From an uncultured Novosphingobium sp. (GTDB lineage Bacteria > Pseudomonadota > Alphaproteobacteria > Sphingomonadales > Sphingomonadaceae), in assembly GCA_947085475.1 (NCBI GenBank), contig CAMTWP010000009.1, positions 124 through 64,123 on the forward strand: a stretch of 64,000 nt of DNA. Reading direction: 5' to 3'. Made by a program: the position numbers and the translations under genes. Shown piece by piece: positions 22,054 through 55,088 of this stretch (the stretch's first letter is position 1; each line of letters starts with the position of its first letter). The notes under the pieces were generated by a model that did no database searches, was not told the origin of the DNA, and was given only the letters and a program-made list of their open reading frames with translations.

Positions 22054-22127
22054 TGCCCCGTCGTCTAATGGTAAGACACCGGTTTCTGATACCGTTTATC
22101 GAGGTTCGAGTCCTTGCGGGGCATCCA
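22054..22127 (+). tRNA. tRNA-Gln (anticodon CTG), CCA encoded
   Basis: 7-bp acceptor stem (TGCCCCG/CGGGGCA), anticodon loop TTCTGAT, T-arm CGAGG-TTCGAGT-CCTTG, 3' TCCA. 74 nt. Confidence 0.9.
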
Positions 22128-22132
22128 CTTTC

Positions 22133-22173
22133 TGATGTATTCCATCAACCTATGCCCAAAAATTCCACTTGGG
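22133..22173. repeat. left-end terminal repeat plus one subterminal ATTCCAC motif
   Basis: GTATTCCAT at 22137-22145 and AATTCCACTT at 22161-22170. The segment 22154-22173 mirrors CAAGTGGAAT...TTTTTGGGCA at the right end. Confidence 0.7.
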
Positions 22174-22352
22174 TAATTTGCGGCATTTTCCCCCGTTATC
22201 AGATGGCTAGTCTATGCTGCTTGAGCGGGAAGTCCGGCATTTTTAATCTCTGAATATCCTGCCAGCATCCCGACATACAAACCAAGTGCCTGCTTCAAAG
22301 ACCAGGCCCATCCACTCGGAACGCTCTGGGCCACTGTCAAAAACGCATGCAC

Positions 22353-22384
22353 AAAAAAGCGGCCACCAGTTACCCGGTAGCCGC
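22353..22384 (-). terminator. Rho-independent terminator of the six-gene island operon
   Basis: On the minus strand: GCGGCTACC-N8-GGTGGCCGC followed by TTTTTTG, ~96 nt after the last stop codon. Confidence 0.75.
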
Positions 22385-22479
22385 CCAATGATGTTGCCAG
22401 TGATTTCCGGAAATGGAAAACGCGACTTTGAAAAGTCAGCTCAAGCGAGTGCTGCCCGTTCCGAAATCAGAATGGTCAA

Positions 22480-23232
22480 CTACTTATCAGTCAATGCTCT
22501 GGCGCCGTTGCGGTGAGCCAACTCGCCCCATTGTTCCCAATGGATGGAACGCTCGCACAACCAGGCAAAAAGCAGATCACGTGCGCGGGAATCCCTGAAG
22601 GCAATCGACCAAACGACGCGGCTCATAGGCATGCCGCCCGAATCCTTGGTGTATAAATCGAGGTGGGAAAACTTGATCAGGAACTGCTTGGCAACGCTTT
22701 CCCTGAAAACCCGATTTGCACGGGCTGGCCACTTTGCCGCTATCTTCTCAGCTTGGGCCAACAGTTCTTCGGAAACCGGAGATGTGTCGCCGACTTCAAG
22801 CCGGATCTCGCGCATGGACAATGATTCGTGATCTTTTTCCCGCGTGAGTTTAAGCATCTTTATCACTGAGTGGCCGAAAGTAGTAATCACCATATATTTG
22901 CGACCAGAACGAGCGCCGTCGTATGCCACAAGGCCAACTTCAACTAGCCAATTACCATAGAAGGTTTGAAAAAATTGGCTGCCATCAAACAGGCTATCAA
23001 CTTCCGCCCATCCAAGACAACCATCTTTATCAATGACCTTCAGGGCTCGAAAAAGTAACTCGCCTTCATCTTCAGAGCGCTTCCAAACTGACTTTGGCCA
23101 AAGTCCATCGAATAACGCATTGCGAACCGATGGCCATGCTTTGCCATTTTCATCGAGAACGCGGTCTCCGTCCCGCATAAGCCACCATCCCCACGGCATG
23201 CAGCGTTTTATCCGTTTGTCGTTATCCATCAT
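22480..23232 (-). CDS. hypothetical protein (island operon gene 6, 250 aa)
   Basis: Start ATGATG overlaps the upstream TGA (ATGATGA). W-rich and non-repetitive. No family recognised. Confidence 0.65.
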   Translation of the reverse strand: MMDNDKRIKRCMPWGWWLMRDGDRVLDENGKAWPSVRNALFDGLWPKSVWKRSEDEGELLFRALKVIDKDGCLGWAEVDSLFDGSQFFQTFYGNWLVEVGLVAYDGARSGRKYMVITTFGHSVIKMLKLTREKDHESLSMREIRLEVGDTSPVSEELLAQAEKIAAKWPARANRVFRESVAKQFLIKFSHLDLYTKDSGGMPMSRVVWSIAFRDSRARDLLFAWLCERSIHWEQWGELAHRNGARALTDK

Positions 23233-24059
23233 TTTCCGCTCTCCTTTTCCTGCGTATCTTCCGGCTGGAGTCCCATCGGCGGTAAAGTCGGGCCATTTCG
23301 GGCAGGCATCGGCAGGCAAAGTTCGATAGCCGAAAGTTGGGAAGCGAGGTTGAGCACCTCATTCACGACATAGTCGTCATCCCGGTAAACTGGTCGAACC
23401 CCGTCAACCGTCAGATTGCGGTATTTCTTTGGAATCAAATCGCCGATATGATTGCAGTCAAAGCCAAGCCACCAAGCGTCATCGTGAGGCTTATGATCCG
23501 TGGCGTTGGTGCCTGGAACGGTCTTTCTATAGGTAGGACGGAAGGTCACGTGACAAACGCGAACAGCCTCGCCTTTCACCCATACGACGCGGGTGGCGGG
23601 GACATCACAGGGCTTACTGTAAGTCAGCCCACCATGAATCTCGATACCCAGATCAGATGGAATGGCATCATGATCAAAGCCATAAAGCGGATGTGAGCGT
23701 GGCAATCCTACGAATCCCCGAAGGTAACCGTCCTCGGCATCGCGCATAATGATGCATTCGTAGCCTGTTTGGGGATCGAGCCAGGCAACCTTGTCAGCCT
23801 CTCCCCGCTTACGATGGGCCCGACGCAGATGGGGATCGACGAAATAGACCGTGGCCTGATGAAGCACGTGATTTTCCGTGCGATAGTCATAGCCCGTGAC
23901 ACGAGCGACGTTCTCTTGGGTGATCACTTCTTGAGGGGTGAGCGTGACGGGAACGAGAGCTGTGCCTGGTGTAACGGAAGCAGGCGTGATCAGTCTTTCG
24001 GTGGGGACGACGGCAACCGGCAGGTTCTTCACTGCAGGCTTCTTCTTTATCGGAGGCAT
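23229..24059 (-). CDS. hypothetical protein (island operon gene 5, 276 aa) with His/Asp-rich motifs
   Basis: Long ORF with GGA RBS. Contains motifs IHGGLTYS and WWLGFDCNHIGD. No family recognised. Confidence 0.65.
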   Translation of the reverse strand: MPPIKKKPAVKNLPVAVVPTERLITPASVTPGTALVPVTLTPQEVITQENVARVTGYDYRTENHVLHQATVYFVDPHLRRAHRKRGEADKVAWLDPQTGYECIIMRDAEDGYLRGFVGLPRSHPLYGFDHDAIPSDLGIEIHGGLTYSKPCDVPATRVVWVKGEAVRVCHVTFRPTYRKTVPGTNATDHKPHDDAWWLGFDCNHIGDLIPKKYRNLTVDGVRPVYRDDDYVVNEVLNLASQLSAIELCLPMPARNGPTLPPMGLQPEDTQEKESGK

Positions 24060-24242
24060 GGGCGTTTTCCTTTCGGGGATGGAAAATCGGTCAGGACTGA
24101 TCGAAAAGCTCTGGCCGAGACGAAATCAGGGACGAGGTTTCTGGGTGATGATCGTGGCTGCAGGCATTCAGCGCCTGATGACGATTGGGTCTGGGGATTT
24201 GCGGGATACGGTGTCGTCAAGCCCACCATTCACCCCACAACT

Positions 24243-24758
24243 TCACCGTTTCAGCAAAGCCTGAACAGGATCAGAAGGCACCCAAACCTTGGTCCGTTTG
24301 TTCTGGCATGAGGCGGCAAACGGTGTAACCGCGCCATTGACCATGAGCTTTTCGAAATCCCTCCACCATTGGTCGGGAAGGTTATCGGCTGAAAGGATGT
24401 CCCACAGAAGAGTGCGGGCGTAAGCCAGTTTGGCAACTTCAACCGCAAACTTGTCAGCTATTTCCCTATCACGGAAAATCGGCACGCATCGACGCAAGAG
24501 GTGTGCACCTTCAAACAGGATACGAATGCCGTCGTCGGCTGGGCTCACGTCCATAATGCGGATATCATGGGGATCAGTGAAGGAGGATGAAAGCAAGTCC
24601 TTCAAGGGACGACCTACAGCGGAGACAGCGACGTTCTCGGGTATGTCTCCTTCAACATAGAACCTGCCGTAACGTTTGCCCCATTTTCCTGGCAGCATTT
24701 TTAGATCGAGACGCGTTGCCTGGTCTGGGCCTTTTGGCCAAAGGATCTGGGCCTGCAT
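24243..24758 (-). CDS. hypothetical protein (island operon gene 4, 171 aa)
   Basis: Co-directional ORF, 33 nt after gene 3. No family recognised. Confidence 0.6.
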   Translation of the reverse strand: MQAQILWPKGPDQATRLDLKMLPGKWGKRYGRFYVEGDIPENVAVSAVGRPLKDLLSSSFTDPHDIRIMDVSPADDGIRILFEGAHLLRRCVPIFRDREIADKFAVEVAKLAYARTLLWDILSADNLPDQWWRDFEKLMVNGAVTPFAASCQNKRTKVWVPSDPVQALLKR

Positions 24759-24791
24759 TGTTCGCCTGATGTGGGAATATAGGAGAAATGG

Positions 24792-25088
24792 CTATTTTCC
24801 CGGTGGTAATGATCCCAGTGGGCGCAAGGGATCTATCAAAGACACCTTTGTGTATCCCACATCACAATCCAGCAATCTGTCAAACGCATCGTATCGTTCT
24901 GCGTCAGAAGAATGAGAGCCCAAACTCTGAACAGCGTCCAGGAGACACGCAGAGACCCGGAGCCATTTCGGCATTGGCTGTCCCGGGCCCAACGACCGCC
25001 AGACACGTGTGAAAGCAAGCCAATCGATGCCGGCATCAATACTTTCGCCGGGATGATCATGAACAATGGAAAAAGGATTGATCGTCAA
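24792..25088 (-). CDS. hypothetical protein (island operon gene 3, 98 aa, TTG start)
   Basis: Its TTG start overlaps the TGA of the preceding 31-codon ORF (TTGA). Confidence 0.5.
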   Translation of the reverse strand: MTINPFSIVHDHPGESIDAGIDWLAFTRVWRSLGPGQPMPKWLRVSACLLDAVQSLGSHSSDAERYDAFDRLLDCDVGYTKVSLIDPLRPLGSLPPGK

Positions 25089-25180
25089 CGGATAAGCCCC
25101 TCGGCAATCACTAACGGGTAGAGATGACGCACGACATCTCCCCCGACCGCATCAGAGCGGTCAAGCGCATGATCTTTCAT
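25085..25180 (-). CDS. possible 31-aa micro-ORF (island operon gene 2)
   Basis: ATG at 25180 preceded by AAGGAAA at 8-nt spacing. Encodes MKDHALDRSDAVGGDVVRHLYPLVIAEGLIR. Its stop overlaps the next start. Below the ORF-track size cutoff. Confidence 0.35.
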   Translation of the reverse strand: MKDHALDRSDAVGGDVVRHLYPLVIAEGLIR

Positions 25181-25234
25181 GATTTTGGTTTCCTTACGAG
25201 CGAGCCCTAAGCAGGGTCAGATCTCTGGTCAGGA

Positions 25235-25975
25235 TCACTTGGCAATGCGGTGTTCGATATCCACCGTGAAGTTTTCATGCCGTTGGAAATCATTATCCAC
25301 TTCAAACTTGCGGATGATTTCGGACAAAACATTCGGCACCAACGCCAATACCATGGGATCAGCCGGGAAAAAGCCCAACCTGATGCGCGCTTCAGAAGCG
25401 GCGTTGGCCCCGTATCGTCCAACCAGATGACCGTGAATGTTTTTCGGTTCACGGGTTATCACCGCATGGAATGCATTGATGATGTGCTGGTCATCCTTGA
25501 AACAGATCATCGCGGTGTAAAGCCGGGGTTGGCCTGCATAAAAGATCAAGGGCGAGTCACCATTATTGGCACCAGAAGACTTTGACTTCTTTTTGCCACG
25601 GGCCTGTTCACCGTCATTGTCTGCCAACAGATCATCAAGGGCGAGCGGATCAACATCAACGCCTAATGACAGACCATGCATCAGCACGCTTCGAAGGCAG
25701 TGTTTGTGCTCAAGGCAGGCTTCCATGGCTGTCCGACCTTCAAAAACCCTGAGCGGTGACAGCATCCACGACATGGGATCGACGTTCAAGCCGTCTCTGG
25801 CAAATCGGCCACCTGCTTCAGCAGCAGTCAAAGCCAACCGGACCAATCCGCGCTGTGTGACGAAAACCAATTTGTCATCGGGCTGATCTGGATCCAGCGG
25901 ATCGGGAAAAGACTTCAGTGGCGGCGGCAATTCAGCAGCGAACGGTCTTATTGCGGTAATGACATTCATAGCCAT
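25235..25975 (-). CDS. hypothetical protein (island operon gene 1, 246 aa) with DUF2384-like (Xre/MbcA/ParS antitoxin toxin-binding) segment
   Basis: AGGAGA RBS immediately before ATG 25975. The segment DPMSWMLSPLRVFEGRTAMEACLEHKHCLRSVLMHGLSLGV resembles the DUF2384 consensus. A Lys/Ser linker follows, then an unassigned C-terminal half. Confidence 0.65.
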   Translation of the reverse strand: MAMNVITAIRPFAAELPPPLKSFPDPLDPDQPDDKLVFVTQRGLVRLALTAAEAGGRFARDGLNVDPMSWMLSPLRVFEGRTAMEACLEHKHCLRSVLMHGLSLGVDVDPLALDDLLADNDGEQARGKKKSKSSGANNGDSPLIFYAGQPRLYTAMICFKDDQHIINAFHAVITREPKNIHGHLVGRYGANAASEARIRLGFFPADPMVLALVPNVLSEIIRKFEVDNDFQRHENFTVDIEHRIAK

Positions 25976-26039
25976 TCTCCTGTCGCCAGGTTTGACATTC
26001 CAAGTCAGCAGGTGGGGGCGACACCACGAGGCAAAAGAC

Positions 26040-26068
26040 CATATAGAGAACATAGAAAGATATGTCAA
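26040..26068 (-). promoter_or_regulatory. candidate sigma-70 promoter of island operon
   Basis: On the minus strand: TTGACA-N17-TATATG. The -35 element lies inside the inverted repeat at 26059-26084. Confidence 0.5.
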
Positions 26069-26084
26069 TAGTTCTCGACATATC
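26059..26084. promoter_or_regulatory. 8-bp perfect inverted repeat, candidate ArsR-family operator
   Basis: GATATGTC-N10-GACATATC sits in the 188-bp divergent region between the operon and the ArsR gene. Confidence 0.45.
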
Positions 26085-26163
26085 GACATAATAGCTCTAG
26101 GGGGGCGTCAAAATAATAGGGGAGGAGCTTTGATTGGGCGGGAAAGTTCCCTAGAATAAGGAT

Positions 26164-26457
26164 ATGGAAAAAATGAATGCCCTCGAAGTCATGAGCGCCC
26201 TTTGCCAATCAACGCGCATGAACGTGGTGAGCCTATTGGTTAAGGCTGGGGCTGATGGAATGGCAGCAGGAGCATTGGCAGATGCAACCGGCAGCTCTCA
26301 CAATACCATGTCCGCTCATCTCGCCATTCTGTTTCGGGCAGGATTGGTAGAGTCTGAAAAGCAGGGGCGGAGCGTTGTCTACAGAGCAAAGGTTGAGGCT
26401 GTTCGCAAGTTGGCGGCATTTCTTCAGGATGTTGCTGATGGACGATTGCCGGCGTGA
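26164..26457 (+). CDS. ArsR/SmtB family transcriptional regulator
   Basis: 97 aa. Winged-HTH pattern (ALCQSTRMNVVSLL...AGALADATGSSHNTMSAHLAILFRAGLVESEKQGRSVVY). Divergent from the island operon. Confidence 0.85.
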   Translation: MEKMNALEVMSALCQSTRMNVVSLLVKAGADGMAAGALADATGSSHNTMSAHLAILFRAGLVESEKQGRSVVYRAKVEAVRKLAAFLQDVADGRLPA

Positions 26458-26541
26458 ACAACCTATAAACCCACTTCAACCAGTTTGGACACTAGCCCAT
26501 TCAATAAATAGAATTCGGGAAAATTTACTTTCAATAATTTT

Positions 26542-27465
26542 TCAGATTTTCCGCTCCATGCAAGTTTCAGATGATATGATTTCTCCATCCCTTTTATCGA
26601 AAACATAGATCATTGCATCTGCCCAATTCGTATAATTTTCTATCGACAACTTAAGATCCCCGTATTTCCAATATTTGGAAACAACTGTCGTAAATCCCGG
26701 ATAGGTGAGTATCTCCTTTTGTTCATGTATCTTTCTTGTATATATCGGACCAACATGTCCAGTTTTTTTTAAGGTCGGGAGAGATGGAGCGATGGAAAAT
26801 TTCACCGCAATGCCAATATTGTTTCCAATCTTTAAGGATTTTGCCCTTTCTGAATCCATCACAATTTCAGAATTAAATGTGCAGTATGCTGCAAAATTTT
26901 CAGTGTATTGATATGCCCCAGTATAATGCCAAACCATCGGATTATAACCGTACTTATAGGAATTTTCGGTCAACTTTTCTAAATAGAAATGTTTTAGAGT
27001 TGCAATGACACTCATTTTATGTGTGTCCGCGTTGTATCTTAATTCTAAGTCAAAAGAATTTGCGTAATTGTAGGGAATTATAAGGAATGTATTCCCATAT
27101 TTTTCTGAAAAGACTTTGTAGTCATTATTCGATTTCAATCGCCCCTGATATTCATCAGTCGTTTCGAATTCATTTTTCTCTAATGTTTTAGCTAGATTGT
27201 ACAAAGCAGAATACAGGACACTCATATCATGTCCTTTACTCAAAAGATCAGAAGATTTAACTTTGCCATCAAATTTAAATGGAATAAATTTATCACTCTT
27301 CGTTACAGGTTCTTCCACATTACTAAATTTTCTAAATAAATCTGCAAAATCTTGACTCGATATCGCTTGCTCAATTCCAGAATTTGAGGAATCTTCGCCG
27401 AGCGCAACGTCAGAGCTAAACCCAAGAAAGCTCAGTGCCAACAGAAGGCTTACCGGCTTTTGCAT
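26542..27465 (-). CDS. secreted hypothetical protein encoded by strongly AT-rich DNA
   Basis: Signal peptide MQKPVSLLLALSFLGFSSDVALG. N/K/Y/F-rich composition. Sampled 60-nt lines are ~30-38% G+C, against ~60% or more in the flanks. Confidence 0.7.
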   Translation of the reverse strand: MQKPVSLLLALSFLGFSSDVALGEDSSNSGIEQAISSQDFADLFRKFSNVEEPVTKSDKFIPFKFDGKVKSSDLLSKGHDMSVLYSALYNLAKTLEKNEFETTDEYQGRLKSNNDYKVFSEKYGNTFLIIPYNYANSFDLELRYNADTHKMSVIATLKHFYLEKLTENSYKYGYNPMVWHYTGAYQYTENFAAYCTFNSEIVMDSERAKSLKIGNNIGIAVKFSIAPSLPTLKKTGHVGPIYTRKIHEQKEILTYPGFTTVVSKYWKYGDLKLSIENYTNWADAMIYVFDKRDGEIISSETCMERKI

Positions 27466-27639
27466 TTTGAACCCTCTGCCTGCTATAAATGCCTTCCGAC
27501 CTAACGACGACAGTTTCCTTATGCAACGGCTGAAAACAGGTGAACTCCATACGCTCAAAGATCAGATCCTTCATGACCGACATCGAAAACGGCTGGATTT
27601 TGGCACGATATGGTCTGACTTTTCCGTTTTGACACCGGT

Positions 27640-28218
27640 TCAGGTTGCTTGAACACCATGCTCCATGGCTCGTCCAATAATCCGAGCTTTCACATCGTCA
27701 GTGGCTGGAAAGATCATGTAGCCGCTATCGAGATCACCCAGCATCATTGATTGATCTCTTGAACCAAGTCGCCAATGCATAGCCACTAGCAGACAGAGCA
27801 TGGCATCCAGACGGTCTTGATCTGCCTTGGTAGGAGGATCTCGGTCAATTTCTGACGCACACCACGCCGCAGCATCTTCGACATTGAACGATTTGAAATG
27901 TGAGGCGGCGGCTGTGGCAACTTTTTGCCAGTCCTCCAGCCGGAATGTTTGTTTGCGACTAGGGTTATAGCGTGGACCAGAGAGGCGGTGGAAAAACTGG
28001 GGATCAAGTGAGGGCAGCGCCAGTGCCGGGAACACCTCTATCACGTGAATGCCGGTTGTGGCAGTTCTGGCTGCTTCTGGGTTCTCGATTGCATTCAGCC
28101 TGCCAAGGAAGCTCCAGATGGGTGAGGCATCGCAAAACATTCCGACTTTGCCACGGTTAGCCACCCCTCGTGATGGCATCGTTTTCGGTGTTCGATATGG
28201 TCTCCCGTTTAGGAGCAT
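27640..28218 (-). pseudogene. DUF429 (RNase H-like nuclease) C-terminal fragment, frameshifted relative to upstream ORF
   Basis: VIEVFPALALPSL and DRLDAMLCLLVA match DUF429 core motifs. The N-terminal catalytic part is missing from this frame. It overlaps 28157-29068 by 62 nt. Confidence 0.55.
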
Positions 28219-29068
28219 CGATCATCAAAATGCCTGCGGTTTGAAGCCGGTCGACCTCTGAAGTTTCCATAGCCCAAGGGAAGCGTAGGCTCTGTTGTGC
28301 TTCTTGCGCGACTTGACTGACCAGCTGCTTTTCGAGGGCTTCGGTGGAAACCGCGAGCCCTTTGCGCATGATGTCGAACAGGATTTTAAAAAGCTCAGCT
28401 CGTGTTTCGACACTGGCCTGTTTTAAGAAGTCGTTGTGAGCGAAAAGCTCATTGTCTTTGGCAAGTTCCAAAAGGCCGGGAAACCGAACTTCGATGAGTT
28501 TCAGGTCTTCCAAATTCGGATTGGTGTAACGCCAGCCCCTGCGAAGATCGCTCCAAACCCGGTGTGCGAGCACTTTTGTTACTGCGTTCTCGGCCTGTTC
28601 GAACGCAATGATGCCGCGAGCGTTGGGGTTGCCCATCCATTCGACGAGGCGTTCTTTGTTTTCTCGATTGAAGCCTAAAGCCTGACGAACAGCGTCACCA
28701 AATTTTTGATGTTCGAGGCCACGACCACCAGCATCTTGCACGGCTTTCAACAGTCCGGCCCTGAGTAAAGTTACAAAGATAAAATCGTTAAAGTGACCAG
28801 ACTGTAGCGCAGCATCTTGGCGGTTATCGGTGAATCCGAGAAGCTTACGCTGAAACTCCCCCAAGGAACCGTCGCTGTGCATTGCCCGAAGGAGGGCTGC
28901 CGTGATCAAAGTGGTGGCAGAACTTCGGCCTTCAGCCGAAAGGCTGGCGAGTTTGGTTCGTTCACGAGCTTGTGATGTCGGGATATTTTTGCAGGCTGCG
29001 CAAAAACGATGTGGCCCCACAAAGAACCAAGCTTCGATCCCTTCGCCATTCACTTGACCGTCACCCAT
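28157..29068 (-). pseudogene. fragment of a helicase-associated (DUF1998/DrmB-like) protein, N-terminally truncated
   Basis: FCAACK...LLGFTDNRQDAALQSGHFNDF resembles the motif found after the Zn-ribbon region of DUF1998-type helicase partners. No helicase core lies upstream. The tail (ILMIDAP) may continue into DUF429 after a frameshift. Confidence 0.5.
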
Positions 29069-29497
29069 ATAAAATCGAATGGCGTTCCCAGAGGCCAGGA
29101 GACCCCAGGCATTTCACGTATTTCCCGGACTGCGTGATGATGCGCCGAAATGGGCGTGTCGTGCTCATCGAGGTTAAGAGAACCGAGAACGACCTTAGAG
29201 ACCCAGAATACCGGGAAAAGCTGGCTCAGATACGAGTGGCTGAATGGGACGACAAAGATCAATGTCTTGCTTGAACAGCTCAAGCCGACCGGAACACGGC
29301 CACTGGCATACCAATATGAGGACGCAGACAGGGCGGCTCGAAAATGCGCGACCGTGACAGAGCTAATCTATCACCACGAACTCACGGCACCGGAAATTTC
29401 GAAAATGCTTCGCGAGCATAAGATTCCAGAGGTCATGCCTAAAGGATGGTGTCGGAAAAAACTGATAGAACTTGGGCTTTTACCAAAGCAGCCTTGA
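28972..29497 (+). pseudogene. TnsA-like PD-(D/E)xK endonuclease remnant (N-terminally truncated, frameshifted near 29215-29240)
   Basis: HFTYFPDCVMMRRNGRVVLIEVK fits the Y-PDF...EVK core of TnsA N-terminal nucleases. The second frame carries the continuation (YEWLNGTTKINVLLEQL) and a helical C-terminal region. Confidence 0.45.
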
Positions 29498-29527
29498 TGC
29501 AATCAAAGACTAAAAATCAGTCCACAG

Positions 29528-29555
29528 CCCCCTCCATCGCGAGGGGGTTTCTTTT
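29528..29555 (+). terminator. Rho-independent terminator
   Basis: CCCCCTC-CATCGC-GAGGGGG followed by TTTCTTTT. Confidence 0.7.
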
Positions 29556-29580
29556 GAGCAGGGCTAGAGGGCTAGCGAAT

Positions 29581-29708
29581 GTTGGATAGAGCAAGTGGAA
29601 TAAAATGGCGTTTTTGGGCAGAATGAAGTGGAATAGGAAAAACTGCCTAAGTGGAATTATATCGTTATATCATGGGCTTGGCTGGATAAGTTTTGTTGGA
29701 ATACATCA
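29581..29708. repeat. right-end array of six (G/T)TGGA(A)TA motifs ending in the terminal inverted repeat
   Basis: TTGGATAGA at 29582, GTGGAATAA at 29595, GTGGAATAG at 29628, GTGGAATTA at 29651, CTGGATAAG at 29682, TTGGAATAC at 29696. All are in the same orientation. Confidence 0.75.
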
Positions 29709-29789
29709 TTTCCTTTCAATTTCTGACAAATTGCGGCCAGTTGCATGGCCCCCTTGCGCTTTTGCGCCTTTGGCCCGACTTATGGGGGC

Positions 29790-55014: not shown

Positions 55015-55088
55015 GGCCCGATGGCGGAGTGGTTACGTACCGGATTGCAAATCCGTTTACGCCGGTTCGATTCCGGCTCGGGCCTCCA
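55015..55088 (+). tRNA. tRNA-Cys (anticodon GCA), CCA encoded
   Basis: Acceptor stem GGCCCGA/TCGGGCC, anticodon loop TTGCAAA, T-arm CCGGTTCGATTCCGG. Near-colinear with E. coli tRNA-Cys as I recall it. Confidence 0.9.

What the first reader, a model, noticed from the sequence alone, without database searches (positions are those of the whole stretch)
22480..25975. Compact six-gene operon of unassignable proteins as transposon-like cargo: candidate undescribed system
Six co-directional ORFs of 246, 31, 98, 171, 276 and 250 aa run from a TTGACA-N17-TATATG promoter (26040-26068) to a strong terminator (22353-22384). Two junctions have overlapping stop/start codons: TTGA at 25085-25088 and ATGATGA at 23227-23232. 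Good Shine-Dalgarno sequences precede genes 1 and 2. Apart from a DUF2384-like stretch in gene 1, I recognise no known domain, transposition function or conjugation function. The operon sits on a mobile-looking element beside remnants of helicase/nuclease genes and has its own divergent repressor-like gene. That is the usual context for phage-defence, anti-defence or toxin-antitoxin-like cargo. One 183-nt untranslated gap (24060-24242) interrupts the otherwise tight packing.
Basis: partly seen in the sequence, partly recalled or inferred. Interest (0 to 1): 0.8.

Follow-up and report, generated by a model that had tools for sequence, protein, structure and literature searches.

The report
Decayed copy of uncharacterised Sphingomonad cassette
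The "six-gene operon" is a partly broken copy of a repressor-controlled gene cassette of unknown function that recurs in Sphingomonas-type bacteria: only three of the six reading frames are whole genes, and the cassette's one recognisable enzyme, an exonuclease, has been deleted.

Summary
The six minus-strand ORFs, the promoter-like site, the terminator and the divergent ArsR-type gene are all present as described. They are not six genes.

Relatives from about 50 Sphingomonadaceae loci carry a conserved module: a divergent ArsR-type repressor, then g1, a DnaQ-like DEDDh exonuclease, g5 and g6. A small subgroup adds a 350-aa protein ("g350").

In this window, a Novosphingobium MAG:
- "Gene 2" is the first ~30 codons of the deleted exonuclease gene.
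- "Genes 3 and 4" are one 5'-truncated g350 gene split by an in-frame TAG.
- Gene 6 ends at a TAG nonsense codon 13 codons early.
- g1, g5, g6 and the repressor gene look intact.

The g5–g6 pair is the mobile core. It also occurs without g1 and the exonuclease, under an XRE-type regulator. g1, g5, g6 and g350 match no Pfam, NCBIfam or PADLOC family. g5 has a phage-associated fold with invariant Cys/His residues. g6 shows a weak winged-helix signal.

A defence role rests only on context. This copy is a relic, or at best a reduced version, carried on a dead transposon-like island next to tRNA-Gln.

The parts
26164..26457 (+). Divergent ArsR/SmtB-family winged-helix repressor gene (97 aa), intact
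   Evidence: Pfam HTH_20 1.3e-11. NCBIfam NF033788 64.3 bits, cutoff 55. A homologous divergent gene (44-56% identity) sits upstream of the operon in L002, L004, L005 and L006, and a divergent HTH_20 gene occupies the same position in L009, L010 and L011. An arsR homologue is present in 20 of 24 dereplicated metagenomic clusters.
26040..26084 (-). Promoter-like TTGACA (26068-26063)-N17-TATATG (26045-26040), overlapped by the palindrome GATATGTC-N10-GACATATC (26084-26059). Candidate ArsR operator over the -35 hexamer.
   Evidence: Sequence. The hairpin is listed. TTGA(C/A)AT and the -10 ATAT columns are conserved in the arsR-g1 intergenic regions of five relatives (alignment A7). Operator function is inferred.
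N-terminal domain (~res 20-125) of a family that also occurs as stand-alone 115-175-aa proteins, plus a C-terminal domain of unknown function.
   Evidence: Full-length 44-48% identity to g1 homologues in L002, L004 and L006. 281 representative clusters. One family member carries both the g1 N-domain and an RNase_T domain, and PF09722 is hit only weakly.
25085..25180 (-). 'Gene 2': a 31-codon stub, the N-terminus of the deleted DnaQ-like DEDDh exonuclease gene
   Evidence: 13/23 identities, in register from Met1, with exonuclease residues 6-28 of L002. It occupies the syntenic position directly after g1. The full exonuclease (292-294 aa; RNase_T; NF006615 4e-80) is present in relatives.
24792..25118 (-). 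'Gene 3': middle fragment of the 350-aa accessory gene (g350). It lacks the first ~65-77 codons and ends at in-frame TAG 24792-24794.
   Evidence: tblastn of L002 and L004 g350 aligns residues 65/73-346 continuously over 25118-24249, through the stop. Alignment A8.
24243..24791 (-). 'Gene 4': C-terminal part of the same g350 gene (same frame as gene 3)
   Evidence: 25088-24758 = 330 nt, so the frames match. The window's K*PFLLYSHIRRT aligns with PLLLYSQRRRT in L002.
24060..24242 (-). 183-nt non-coding spacer between the g350 remnant and g5. No RNA element detected.
   Evidence: No Rfam match. Fold z-score -0.08.
23229..24059 (-). g5, intact (276 aa). Phage-associated fold. Invariant residues D89, C102, R106, H123, P124, H142, G143, G144, C151, C169, H170, W197, G199, F200, D207.
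   Evidence: 66-72% identical to L001, L002 and L004. phrog_2164 4e-22. AF2 pLDDT 76, pTM 0.75. No PDB match. BFVD matches at 6e-6 to 1e-3 to phage and giant-virus proteins, including one named DUF7448. Invariant columns from A3.
22441..23232 (-). g6 (250 aa up to TAG 22480-22482). The original ORF continued 12 more codons to TGA 22441-22443. Translationally coupled to g5 (ATGA overlap).
   Evidence: Alignments A1 and A2 show relatives 9-13 aa longer. tblastn homology continues in frame past the TAG (sequence). AF2 pLDDT 76. Weak winged-helix matches at E 0.03-0.1.
22357..22386 (-). Intrinsic-terminator-like hairpin ending the operon
   Evidence: 13-bp stem, 8 GC pairs, T tract.
22133..29708 (.). 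7.6-kb low-GC island (42-54% GC against ~60%) inserted 5 bp after tRNA-Gln. Terminal inverted repeats TGATGTATTCCA(T/A)CAA, subterminal AAGTGGAAT repeats, and TTTC on both flanks. Carries the operon plus gene remnants.
   Evidence: GC profile. tRNA. Inverted repeats I7 and I9. The four exact AAGTGGAAT copies lie only at the island ends. End alignment. Related Novosphingobium MAGs have consecutive accession numbers for LOG and RlmE, with one gene between.

Best explanation
SHOWN. The locus is a partly decayed copy of a modular, horizontally exchanged Sphingomonadaceae cassette. The cassette consists of a divergent ArsR/SmtB-type repressor and an operon: g1, a DnaQ-like DEDDh 3'-5' exonuclease, g5 and g6. 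One subclade adds a 350-aa protein.

In this Novosphingobium genome the cassette is cargo of a dead transposon-like island next to tRNA-Gln. It has suffered three lesions:
1. A deletion or rearrangement joins exonuclease codon ~30 to g350 codon ~65-77 (ORF2/ORF3).
2. A TAG nonsense codon lies inside g350 (ORF3|ORF4).
3. A TAG nonsense codon lies 13 codons before the end of g6.

Only the repressor gene, g1, g5 and the slightly shortened g6 remain whole.

INFERRED.
- The functional core is the translationally coupled g5-g6 pair.
- g6 (winged-helix-like) binds nucleic acid.
- g5 (phage-type fold with an invariant Cys/His/Asp cluster) is a metal-dependent enzymatic or sensing partner.
- The exonuclease and g1 are an accessory effector/regulator pair.
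- ArsR keeps the operon off by binding the palindrome over the -35 hexamer.
- The most likely role of the intact cassette is a repressor-controlled, nucleic-acid-directed conflict module: phage or mobile-element exclusion.
- The copy in this window is a relic or, at best, a reduced g1 + g5-g6 version.

My confidence is about 0.85 for the anatomy and decay, and about 0.35 for the defence-type function.
For: Anatomy and decay:
- Relatives L001, L002, L004 and L006 have the order g1 - RNase_T exonuclease (292 aa) - g5 - g6 - g350. L002, L004 and L006 also have a divergent arsR upstream.
- Window ORF3 and ORF4 both map to g350, and ORF2 maps to the exonuclease N-terminus.
- The g6 TAG is followed by in-frame homologous codons.
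- The same decayed structure is 100% identical in six independent metagenome contigs.
- The closest relative (87%) is broken differently: its g5 lacks ~33 codons and is fused to a fragment that I read, from knowledge of the family, as an HsdR C-terminus.

Module conservation:
- g5 lies directly upstream of g6 in 31 of 32 dereplicated clusters.
- Exonuclease, g1 and arsR are each present in 20 of 24 clusters.
- L006 and L004 share 95% nucleotide identity across arsR to g350, with unrelated flanks.
- L047 and L029 share only the 1.65-kb g5-g6 segment. L029 has an XRE-type regulator instead of ArsR, and no g1 or exonuclease.

Components:
- The exonuclease is NF006615 at 4e-80 and PolC/DnaQ-like.
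- One member of the g1 family carries both the g1 N-domain and an RNase_T domain.
- g5 fold and invariant residues.
- g6 winged-helix signal.
- Conserved promoter and palindrome.

Context:
- Zorya lies next to L001.
- A DruE-like helicase lies next to L006, and a fragment of it lies in the window.
- HipA and HNH genes lie next to L011, and integrases next to L006, L009 and L099.
- A variable region begins about 750 bp downstream of g6 in S. melonis.
Against: - There is no functional evidence of any kind.
- g1, g5, g6 and g350 match nothing in PADLOC.
- Only 2 of 81 metagenomic and viral loci have an integrase within 7 kb, and neighbours were not scored systematically for defence genes. The defence-island argument therefore rests on a handful of loci.
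- The g6 winged-helix match is weak (E 0.03-0.1, TM ~0.45).
- The g5 metal-site idea rests only on invariant Cys/His residues in a model of medium confidence.
- The gene order here (g350 before g5) differs from all relatives, so the history of the rearrangement is not resolved.
- The truncated pieces might still be translated from the TTG and ATG restarts.
Confidence: 0.6

Rival explanations
1. One reading: an intact, compact six-gene novel system in which all six ORFs are genuine separate genes.
For: All six ORFs are open, co-directional and tightly packed, with stop/start overlaps. The same structure is identical in several metagenome samples.
Against: ORF2 aligns in register with the start of a 292-aa exonuclease. 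ORF3 and ORF4 align colinearly, through a TAG, with single 350-372-aa proteins in five homologues. No relative has these as separate genes. The identical metagenome copies are the same strain (100% nucleotide identity), so they give no evidence of selection.
Confidence: 0.04
2. The cassette serves a mobile element or prophage rather than the host. It would be an accessory DNA-processing or counter-defence module carried at the att-proximal end of integrative elements: an exonuclease, a DNA-binding protein and a phage-type domain.
For: The g5 domain is a phage family (phrog_2164; BFVD matches). In Streptococcus phage Javan414 it sits in the replication/early module. Cassette copies abut integrases in L006, L009 and L099. 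Three copies lie on IMG/VR contigs. L001 adds a PolB-exo-like gene.
Against: Most copies have no integrase within 7 kb. The IMG/VR copy L098 is followed by ordinary host-type genes such as a rhamnosidase and an acyltransferase. A host-type ArsR or XRE repressor with its own operator suggests an autonomous, tightly silenced module, which is more typical of toxic immunity effectors.
Confidence: 0.2
3. A toxin-antitoxin-like addiction module. g1, through its DUF2384-like N-domain, would act as an antitoxin or adaptor neutralising a toxic partner (the exonuclease or g5), with ArsR as transcriptional control.
For: There are weak, in-register similarities of the g1 N-domain to Xre_MbcA_ParS_C. One family member carries both the g1 N-domain and an RNase_T domain. 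The exonuclease has been lost repeatedly (window; the L029 clade), as expected for a costly toxin.
Against: There is no RES, ParT or MbcT-type toxin. The PF09722 signal is below threshold (0 hits for the window protein; 2 of 40 homologues at 6e-3). g5-g6 persists without g1. Four or five genes of 240-350 aa are atypical for TA modules.
Confidence: 0.1
4. A lineage-specific housekeeping or stress function, for example DNA repair under an ArsR-type stress sensor, that merely happens to sit near variable regions.
For: It is widespread in Sphingomonas: at least 199 g6 clusters. Many copies have no obvious mobile genes nearby. The exonuclease is DnaQ-like.
Against: Contexts are unrelated between species (L005, L008, L009, L010). 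Nearly identical modules occur with different flanks. It is patchily present: GTDB representative genomes yielded a single locus with the patterns used. Copies decay repeatedly.
Confidence: 0.06

Closest known systems
Repressor-controlled accessory nuclease cassettes of defence islands (candidate systems such as the PADLOC 'PDC' entries; Cas-associated DEDDh exonucleases)
   Same: The operon is compact and horizontally mobile, with a dedicated divergent wHTH repressor. In intact copies the effector-like enzyme is a DEDDh exonuclease (PADLOC DEDDh 2.2e-25, PDC-S48 6e-12). Some copies lie beside Zorya, a DruE-like helicase, TA genes and integrases.
   Different: No component other than the exonuclease matches any PADLOC model. 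The window copy has no exonuclease at all. No phenotype is known.
Xre/MbcA/ParS (DUF2384) antitoxin family, PF09722
   Same: The g1 N-domain has an in-register W-x3-P-x5-G-x3-(I/M) core. Two of 40 homologues give sub-threshold PF09722 hits.
   Different: No Pfam hit for g1 itself. No match to any solved structure sequence with a family profile. No Xre HTH and no RES-type toxin partner. g1 has an additional conserved C-terminal domain.
phrog_2164 / DUF7448-like phage proteins
   Same: g5 residues 88-245 match phrog_2164 at 4e-22. The AF2 model matches phage and giant-virus proteins in BFVD.
   Different: The phage proteins are mostly 110-290 aa and of unknown function. g5 has an extra N-terminal beta-meander and a basic tail, and is always paired with g6. 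Pfam models, including DUF7448, give no hit for g5 or its 50 homologues.
Tn7-like transposons inserted downstream of conserved genes or tRNAs
   Same: The island starts 5 bp after tRNA-Gln. It has TG...CA termini, a 16-nt terminal inverted repeat and several subterminal repeats in inverted orientation at both ends. It also has a weak TnsA-like N-terminal fragment.
   Different: No tnsB, tnsC or targeting genes remain. The flanking repeat is 4 bp (TTTC), not 5 bp. The TnsA-like match is below Pfam's cutoff and points toward the nearer end.

Membership tests
ArsR/SmtB transcription factors (divergent regulator, 26164-26457) | Winged-helix HTH_20/HTH_5 domain scoring above the curated cutoffs | tested here: met
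   Pfam HTH_20 44.7 bits (cutoff 27). NCBIfam NF033788 64.3 bits (cutoff 55).
ArsR/SmtB transcription factors | Metal- or ligand-sensing site, and operator binding that represses the adjacent promoter | not testable with these tools
   Only a palindrome over the -35 hexamer (26059-26084) and its partial conservation in relatives. No binding data.
DUF2384 / Xre_MbcA_ParS_C (PF09722), for g1 | Significant match to the PF09722 profile | tested here: not met
   No hit at E <= 1 for g1. Two of 40 family members hit at E ~6e-3, below gathering. hhalign against one weak PF09722 protein from locus L010 gives probability 23%.
DUF2384-type toxin-antitoxin systems (Xre-RES, ParST, MbcTA) | Adjacent RES/ParT/MbcT toxin gene and an N-terminal Xre HTH in the antitoxin | tested here: not met
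   No such domains in the window proteins or in the operon proteins of L001, L002 and L004 that were scanned.
DnaQ-like DEDDh 3'-5' exonucleases (NCBIfam NF006615 / Pfam RNase_T) | Complete exonuclease domain with the DEDDh motifs | tested here: not met
   Met in relatives (NF006615 4e-80, RNase_T 1e-11). The window keeps only 31 N-terminal codons, upstream of the catalytic domain.
Known or candidate anti-phage systems (PADLOC-DB v2.0) | Match of the component proteins to system models | tested here: not met
   No hits for g1, g5 and g6 or their relatives, or for full-length g350 homologues. Only the relatives' exonuclease hits generic DEDDh and PDC-S48 models.
Anti-phage defence systems in general | Statistical enrichment next to known defence genes; protection phenotype | not tested
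   Only anecdotal neighbours: Zorya (L001), a DruE-like helicase (L006 and the window fragment), HipA and HNH (L011). No enrichment statistic or assay was possible.
phrog_2164 phage protein family (g5) | Significant profile match plus a shared fold | tested here: met
   phrog_2164 4.1e-22, covering profile positions 19-128 of 135. Foldseek BFVD matches at 5.8e-6 to 1e-3.
Tn7-like transposons (the island) | tnsA/tnsB/tnsC genes; terminal inverted repeats with multiple transposase-binding repeats; 5-bp target duplication | tested here: inconclusive
   Inverted repeats and subterminal repeats are present. Only a weak TnsA-like fragment remains (20.6 bits against cutoff 26.5). No tnsB or tnsC. The flanks share 4 bp, TTTC.

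The most novel reading that the evidence does not exclude
The translationally coupled g5-g6 pair is a previously undescribed two-gene immunity or exclusion module. g5 would be a phage-derived metal-binding fold with no solved structure, and g6 a winged-helix partner. The pair is kept silent by interchangeable repressors (ArsR or XRE) and is optionally armed with a g1 + DnaQ-like exonuclease pair and a 350-aa accessory. Repeated loss of the exonuclease, as in this window, would reflect its cost.
Probability: 0.3. Interest if true: 0.6.

Novelty: new variant of a known kind. Interest (0 to 1): 0.42.

Why it matters
The window itself holds a relic, so it is a poor experimental candidate. It does point to a real, conserved cassette that is absent from Pfam, NCBIfam and PADLOC. 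That cassette is found in at least 40 dereplicated Sphingomonadaceae lineages and has a clear modular structure: a core g5-g6 pair, an optional g1 + exonuclease pair, an optional 350-aa gene, and swappable repressors. If an intact copy shows phage or mobile-element exclusion, it would add a new system built around a phage-type fold with no solved structure.

The case also shows how pseudogene fragments can pass for a tidy multi-gene operon when read from sequence alone.

Tried and rejected
- Pfam, NCBIfam, PADLOC and PHROGs scans of all six ORFs and of neighbours. The only hit was g5 to phrog_2164.
- PDB sequence searches with single proteins and with family profiles for g1, the g1 N-domain, g5, g6 and g350. 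Nothing below E 0.3.
- Foldseek against PDB. g5 gave nothing (best E 0.8). g6 gave only weak MarR/DtxR-type winged-helix matches.
- Pfam scan of 51 g5 homologues. Nothing.
- hhalign among the g5, g6 and g350 families, to look for internal paralogy. They are unrelated.
- blastn of the whole island against plasmids. Only the helicase fragment matched.
- tblastn of g5 against phages and plasmids. One phage and two plasmid hits, all annotated as hypothetical.
- Rfam scan and folding of the 183-nt gap. No RNA element.
- Exact-sequence look-ups of g5, P0001, P0002 and P0050 failed, so the closest relative's locus (the contig carrying P0002 and P0007) could not be read.
- The genome-contig scan returned only one distant Sphingobium locus.
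- Literature searches (DUF7448; Sphingomonas/DEDDh/ArsR; DnaQ-like exonuclease/anti-phage) found no description of this cassette.
- An integrase-type island with tRNA-derived direct repeats was considered and rejected. No direct repeat of the tRNA 3' end and no integrase are present.

Full report
OBSERVATION

The six minus-strand ORFs exist at the stated coordinates. TTGACA-N17-TATATG lies at 26068-26040, and the TTGA and ATGA stop/start overlaps are in the sequence. A 13-bp-stem, T-tailed hairpin lies at 22386-22357.

The divergent gene at 26164-26457 is a bona fide ArsR/SmtB-family regulator: HTH_20 1.3e-11, and NF033788 above its cutoff. None of the six ORFs matches Pfam, NCBIfam or PADLOC. 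Only ORF5 ("g5") matches a PHROG of unknown function, phrog_2164 at 4e-22.

The 183-nt gap has no Rfam match and folds no better than shuffled sequence.

SETTING

GC content falls from about 60% to 42-54% between about 22.1 and 29.7 kb. The low-GC block starts 5 bp after tRNA-Gln (22054-22127).

The block is bounded by inverted repeats TGATGTATTCCA(T/A)CAA at 22133-22148 and 29693-29708. Subterminal AAGTGGAAT repeats occur exactly four times in 64 kb, all at the two ends. TTTC lies on both flanks.

Inside the block are gene remnants:
- A 303-aa piece that is 85% identical to residues ~551-852 of a 1719-aa DruE-like helicase.
- An N-terminally truncated DUF429/PDC-S44 gene.
- A weak TnsA-like fragment.

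Housekeeping proteins place the window in a Novosphingobium MAG. In a related MAG, LOG and RlmE have accession numbers two apart, which is consistent with the island being an insertion. So the "transposon-like cargo" setting is right, and the element is dead.

WHAT THE SIX ORFs ARE

ORF6 ("g6") has only five close relatives among 5.8 billion clusters. Their contigs show a conserved order: a g1 homologue (234-244 aa), an RNase_T exonuclease (292 aa), a g5 homologue (275-276 aa), a g6 homologue (259-263 aa) and a protein of 350-372 aa. A divergent HTH_20 (ArsR-type) gene lies upstream in two of them, L002 and L004.

tblastn shows that window ORF3 and ORF4 both map to the 350-aa protein ("g350"), at residues ~77-155 and ~177-346. 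They are in the same frame. They are separated by TAG 24792-24794, and homology reads straight through it: K*PFLLYSHIRRT against PLLLYSQRRRT.

ORF2 (MKDHALDRSDAVGGDVVRHLYPLVIAEG...) aligns in register from Met1 with the exonuclease N-terminus (MIIEELGRDDAAGMNGVRQLFPLVLEEG...). It sits directly after g1, where the exonuclease gene lies in relatives.

g6 stops at TAG 22480-22482. Twelve more homologous codons follow in frame, down to TGA 22441-22443.

So the exonuclease gene is deleted to a 31-codon stub. That stub is joined out of frame to a 5'-truncated g350, g350 carries a nonsense codon, and g6 carries a late nonsense codon. g1, g5 and the repressor gene are full length. g1 probably starts at ATG 25969 and is 244 aa.

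The same decayed structure is 100% identical in six metagenome contigs. The closest relative (87% identity) is broken in another way: its g5 lacks ~33 codons and is fused to a fragment that I read, from knowledge of the family, as an HsdR C-terminus.

THE FAMILY

A profile search finds at least 199 g6 clusters. Those that carry a source name are almost all from Sphingomonas, and all are annotated as hypothetical. g5 has 52 clusters. g1 has 281 representative clusters.

I ran a census of 78 metagenomic and 3 viral loci, dereplicated to 39 g6 clusters:
- g5 lies directly upstream of g6 in 31 of 32 clusters with enough flank.
- Exonuclease, g1 and arsR are each present in 20 of 24 clusters.
- g350 is present in none.

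L006 and L004 share 95% nucleotide identity from arsR to g350, with unrelated flanks. The module therefore moves as a unit.

One clade has only g5-g6, with a divergent XRE-type HTH regulator and an SNase gene upstream. L047 and L029 share only the 1.65-kb g5-g6 segment, at 89% nucleotide identity. The g5-g6 pair is therefore the core, and g1 + exonuclease and g350 are optional arms.

COMPONENTS

- Exonuclease: NCBIfam NF006615 at 4e-80; PolC/DnaQ-like DEDDh.
- g1: the N-domain (residues ~20-125) also exists as stand-alone small proteins, and one family member carries both it and an RNase_T domain. Its link to DUF2384 is weak.
- g5: AF2 pLDDT 76, pTM 0.75. It has no PDB neighbour. It matches phage and giant-virus proteins in BFVD at 6e-6 to 1e-3, including one named DUF7448. 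A phage homologue sits in a replication/early module. Invariant residues are D89, C102, R106, H123, H142-G-G, C151, C169-H170, W197-x-G-F and D207, which suggests a metal site (inference).
- g6: AF2 pLDDT 76. It gives only weak MarR/DtxR-type winged-helix matches.
- g5, g6 and g350 are mutually unrelated.
- The arsR-g1 intergenic region keeps the -35 and -10 elements across five relatives, and an imperfect palindrome over the -35 hexamer.

MECHANISM (INFERENCE)

An ArsR-type, or in one clade XRE-type, repressor silences an operon whose core is a DNA-binding protein (g6) coupled to a metal-dependent enzyme or sensor of phage-type fold (g5). Most copies add a DnaQ-like exonuclease and its probable partner g1.

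Three things together point to a nucleic-acid-directed conflict module (phage or mobile-element exclusion) as the most likely role, at about 0.35:
- Tight repression.
- Modular exchange.
- Placement at variable regions next to Zorya, a DruE-like helicase, HipA/HNH genes and integrases in several loci.

The rivals are an element-serving DNA-processing or counter-defence module (about 0.2), a TA-like module (about 0.1) and a lineage-specific repair function (about 0.06).

Two weaknesses stand out. Integrases lie within 7 kb in only 2 of 81 loci, and no enrichment statistic or phenotype is available.

VERDICT

This window holds a relic with three intact genes and three gene fragments, and it lacks the module's only recognisable enzyme. 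I rate novelty as a new variant of a known general kind: a repressor-controlled accessory cassette on mobile DNA. Interest is moderate. Any follow-up should use intact relatives, not this copy.

Noticed in passing
window 22128-22215 and 29590-29717: The island ends have a Tn7/Mu-like architecture. There is a 16-nt terminal inverted repeat (TG...CA), and AAGTGGAAT repeats occur three times at the right end and once, inverted, at the left end. TTTC lies on both flanks, and the insertion is 5 bp after tRNA-Gln. No transposase genes remain.
   Followed up: partly
window 28157-29068 (-): A 303-aa ORF is an internal fragment (85% identity to residues ~551-852) of a 1719-aa DEAD/Helicase_C/MZB DruE-like helicase. 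The full-length helicase lies about 5 kb from the same cassette in L006 and L007, but in the opposite relative orientation. Helicase and cassette may travel together.
   Followed up: partly
window 27640-28218 (-): An N-terminally truncated DUF429 gene matches PADLOC candidate PDC-S44 at 1.7e-71, covering profile positions 100-270 of 277. This is another decayed defence-candidate gene on the island.
   Followed up: no
window 26542-27558 (-): A 338-aa ORF in the lowest-GC stretch (~43% GC) has a hydrophobic, signal-like N-terminus and no family match in any library. Other assemblies call it as 307 aa.
   Followed up: no
window 23916 (inside g5), loci L013, L014, L016, L017: Four independent metagenome contigs of the same strain all end at window position 23916, about 144 nt into g5. 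This is close to where the nearest relative's g5 (P0007) is fused to a foreign N-terminus. It may be a strain-level junction or a recombination hotspot.
   Followed up: no
window 24792-24794 and 22480-22482: Both in-frame stops that interrupt conserved coding sequence (in g350 and in g6) are TAG. With two events this is not statistically meaningful. Read-through was not examined.
   Followed up: no
window 29745-29789: The LOG-family ORF downstream of the island is 15 codons longer (308 aa) than its 293-aa orthologues. The extra codons run toward the island end, so the true start is probably ATG 29790.
   Followed up: partly
L001 10818-13841: One relative carries two divergent g350 paralogues in tandem, followed by a DNA_pol_B_exo2-type exonuclease gene. 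ZorA/B/C genes and a cut-off 997-aa ORF lie immediately upstream of its cassette. This is an expanded variant of the module.
   Followed up: partly
L029 4539-5765 and related loci L028-L050, L069, L085: A clade with g5-g6 only has a divergent XRE-type HTH gene and a secreted SNase/Excalibur nuclease gene upstream. A variable insertion site lies just downstream of g6.
   Followed up: partly
window 55015-55088: A second tRNA gene (tRNA-Cys) is followed by a 1059-aa minus-strand ORF and a modest GC dip. It was not examined for another island.
   Followed up: no
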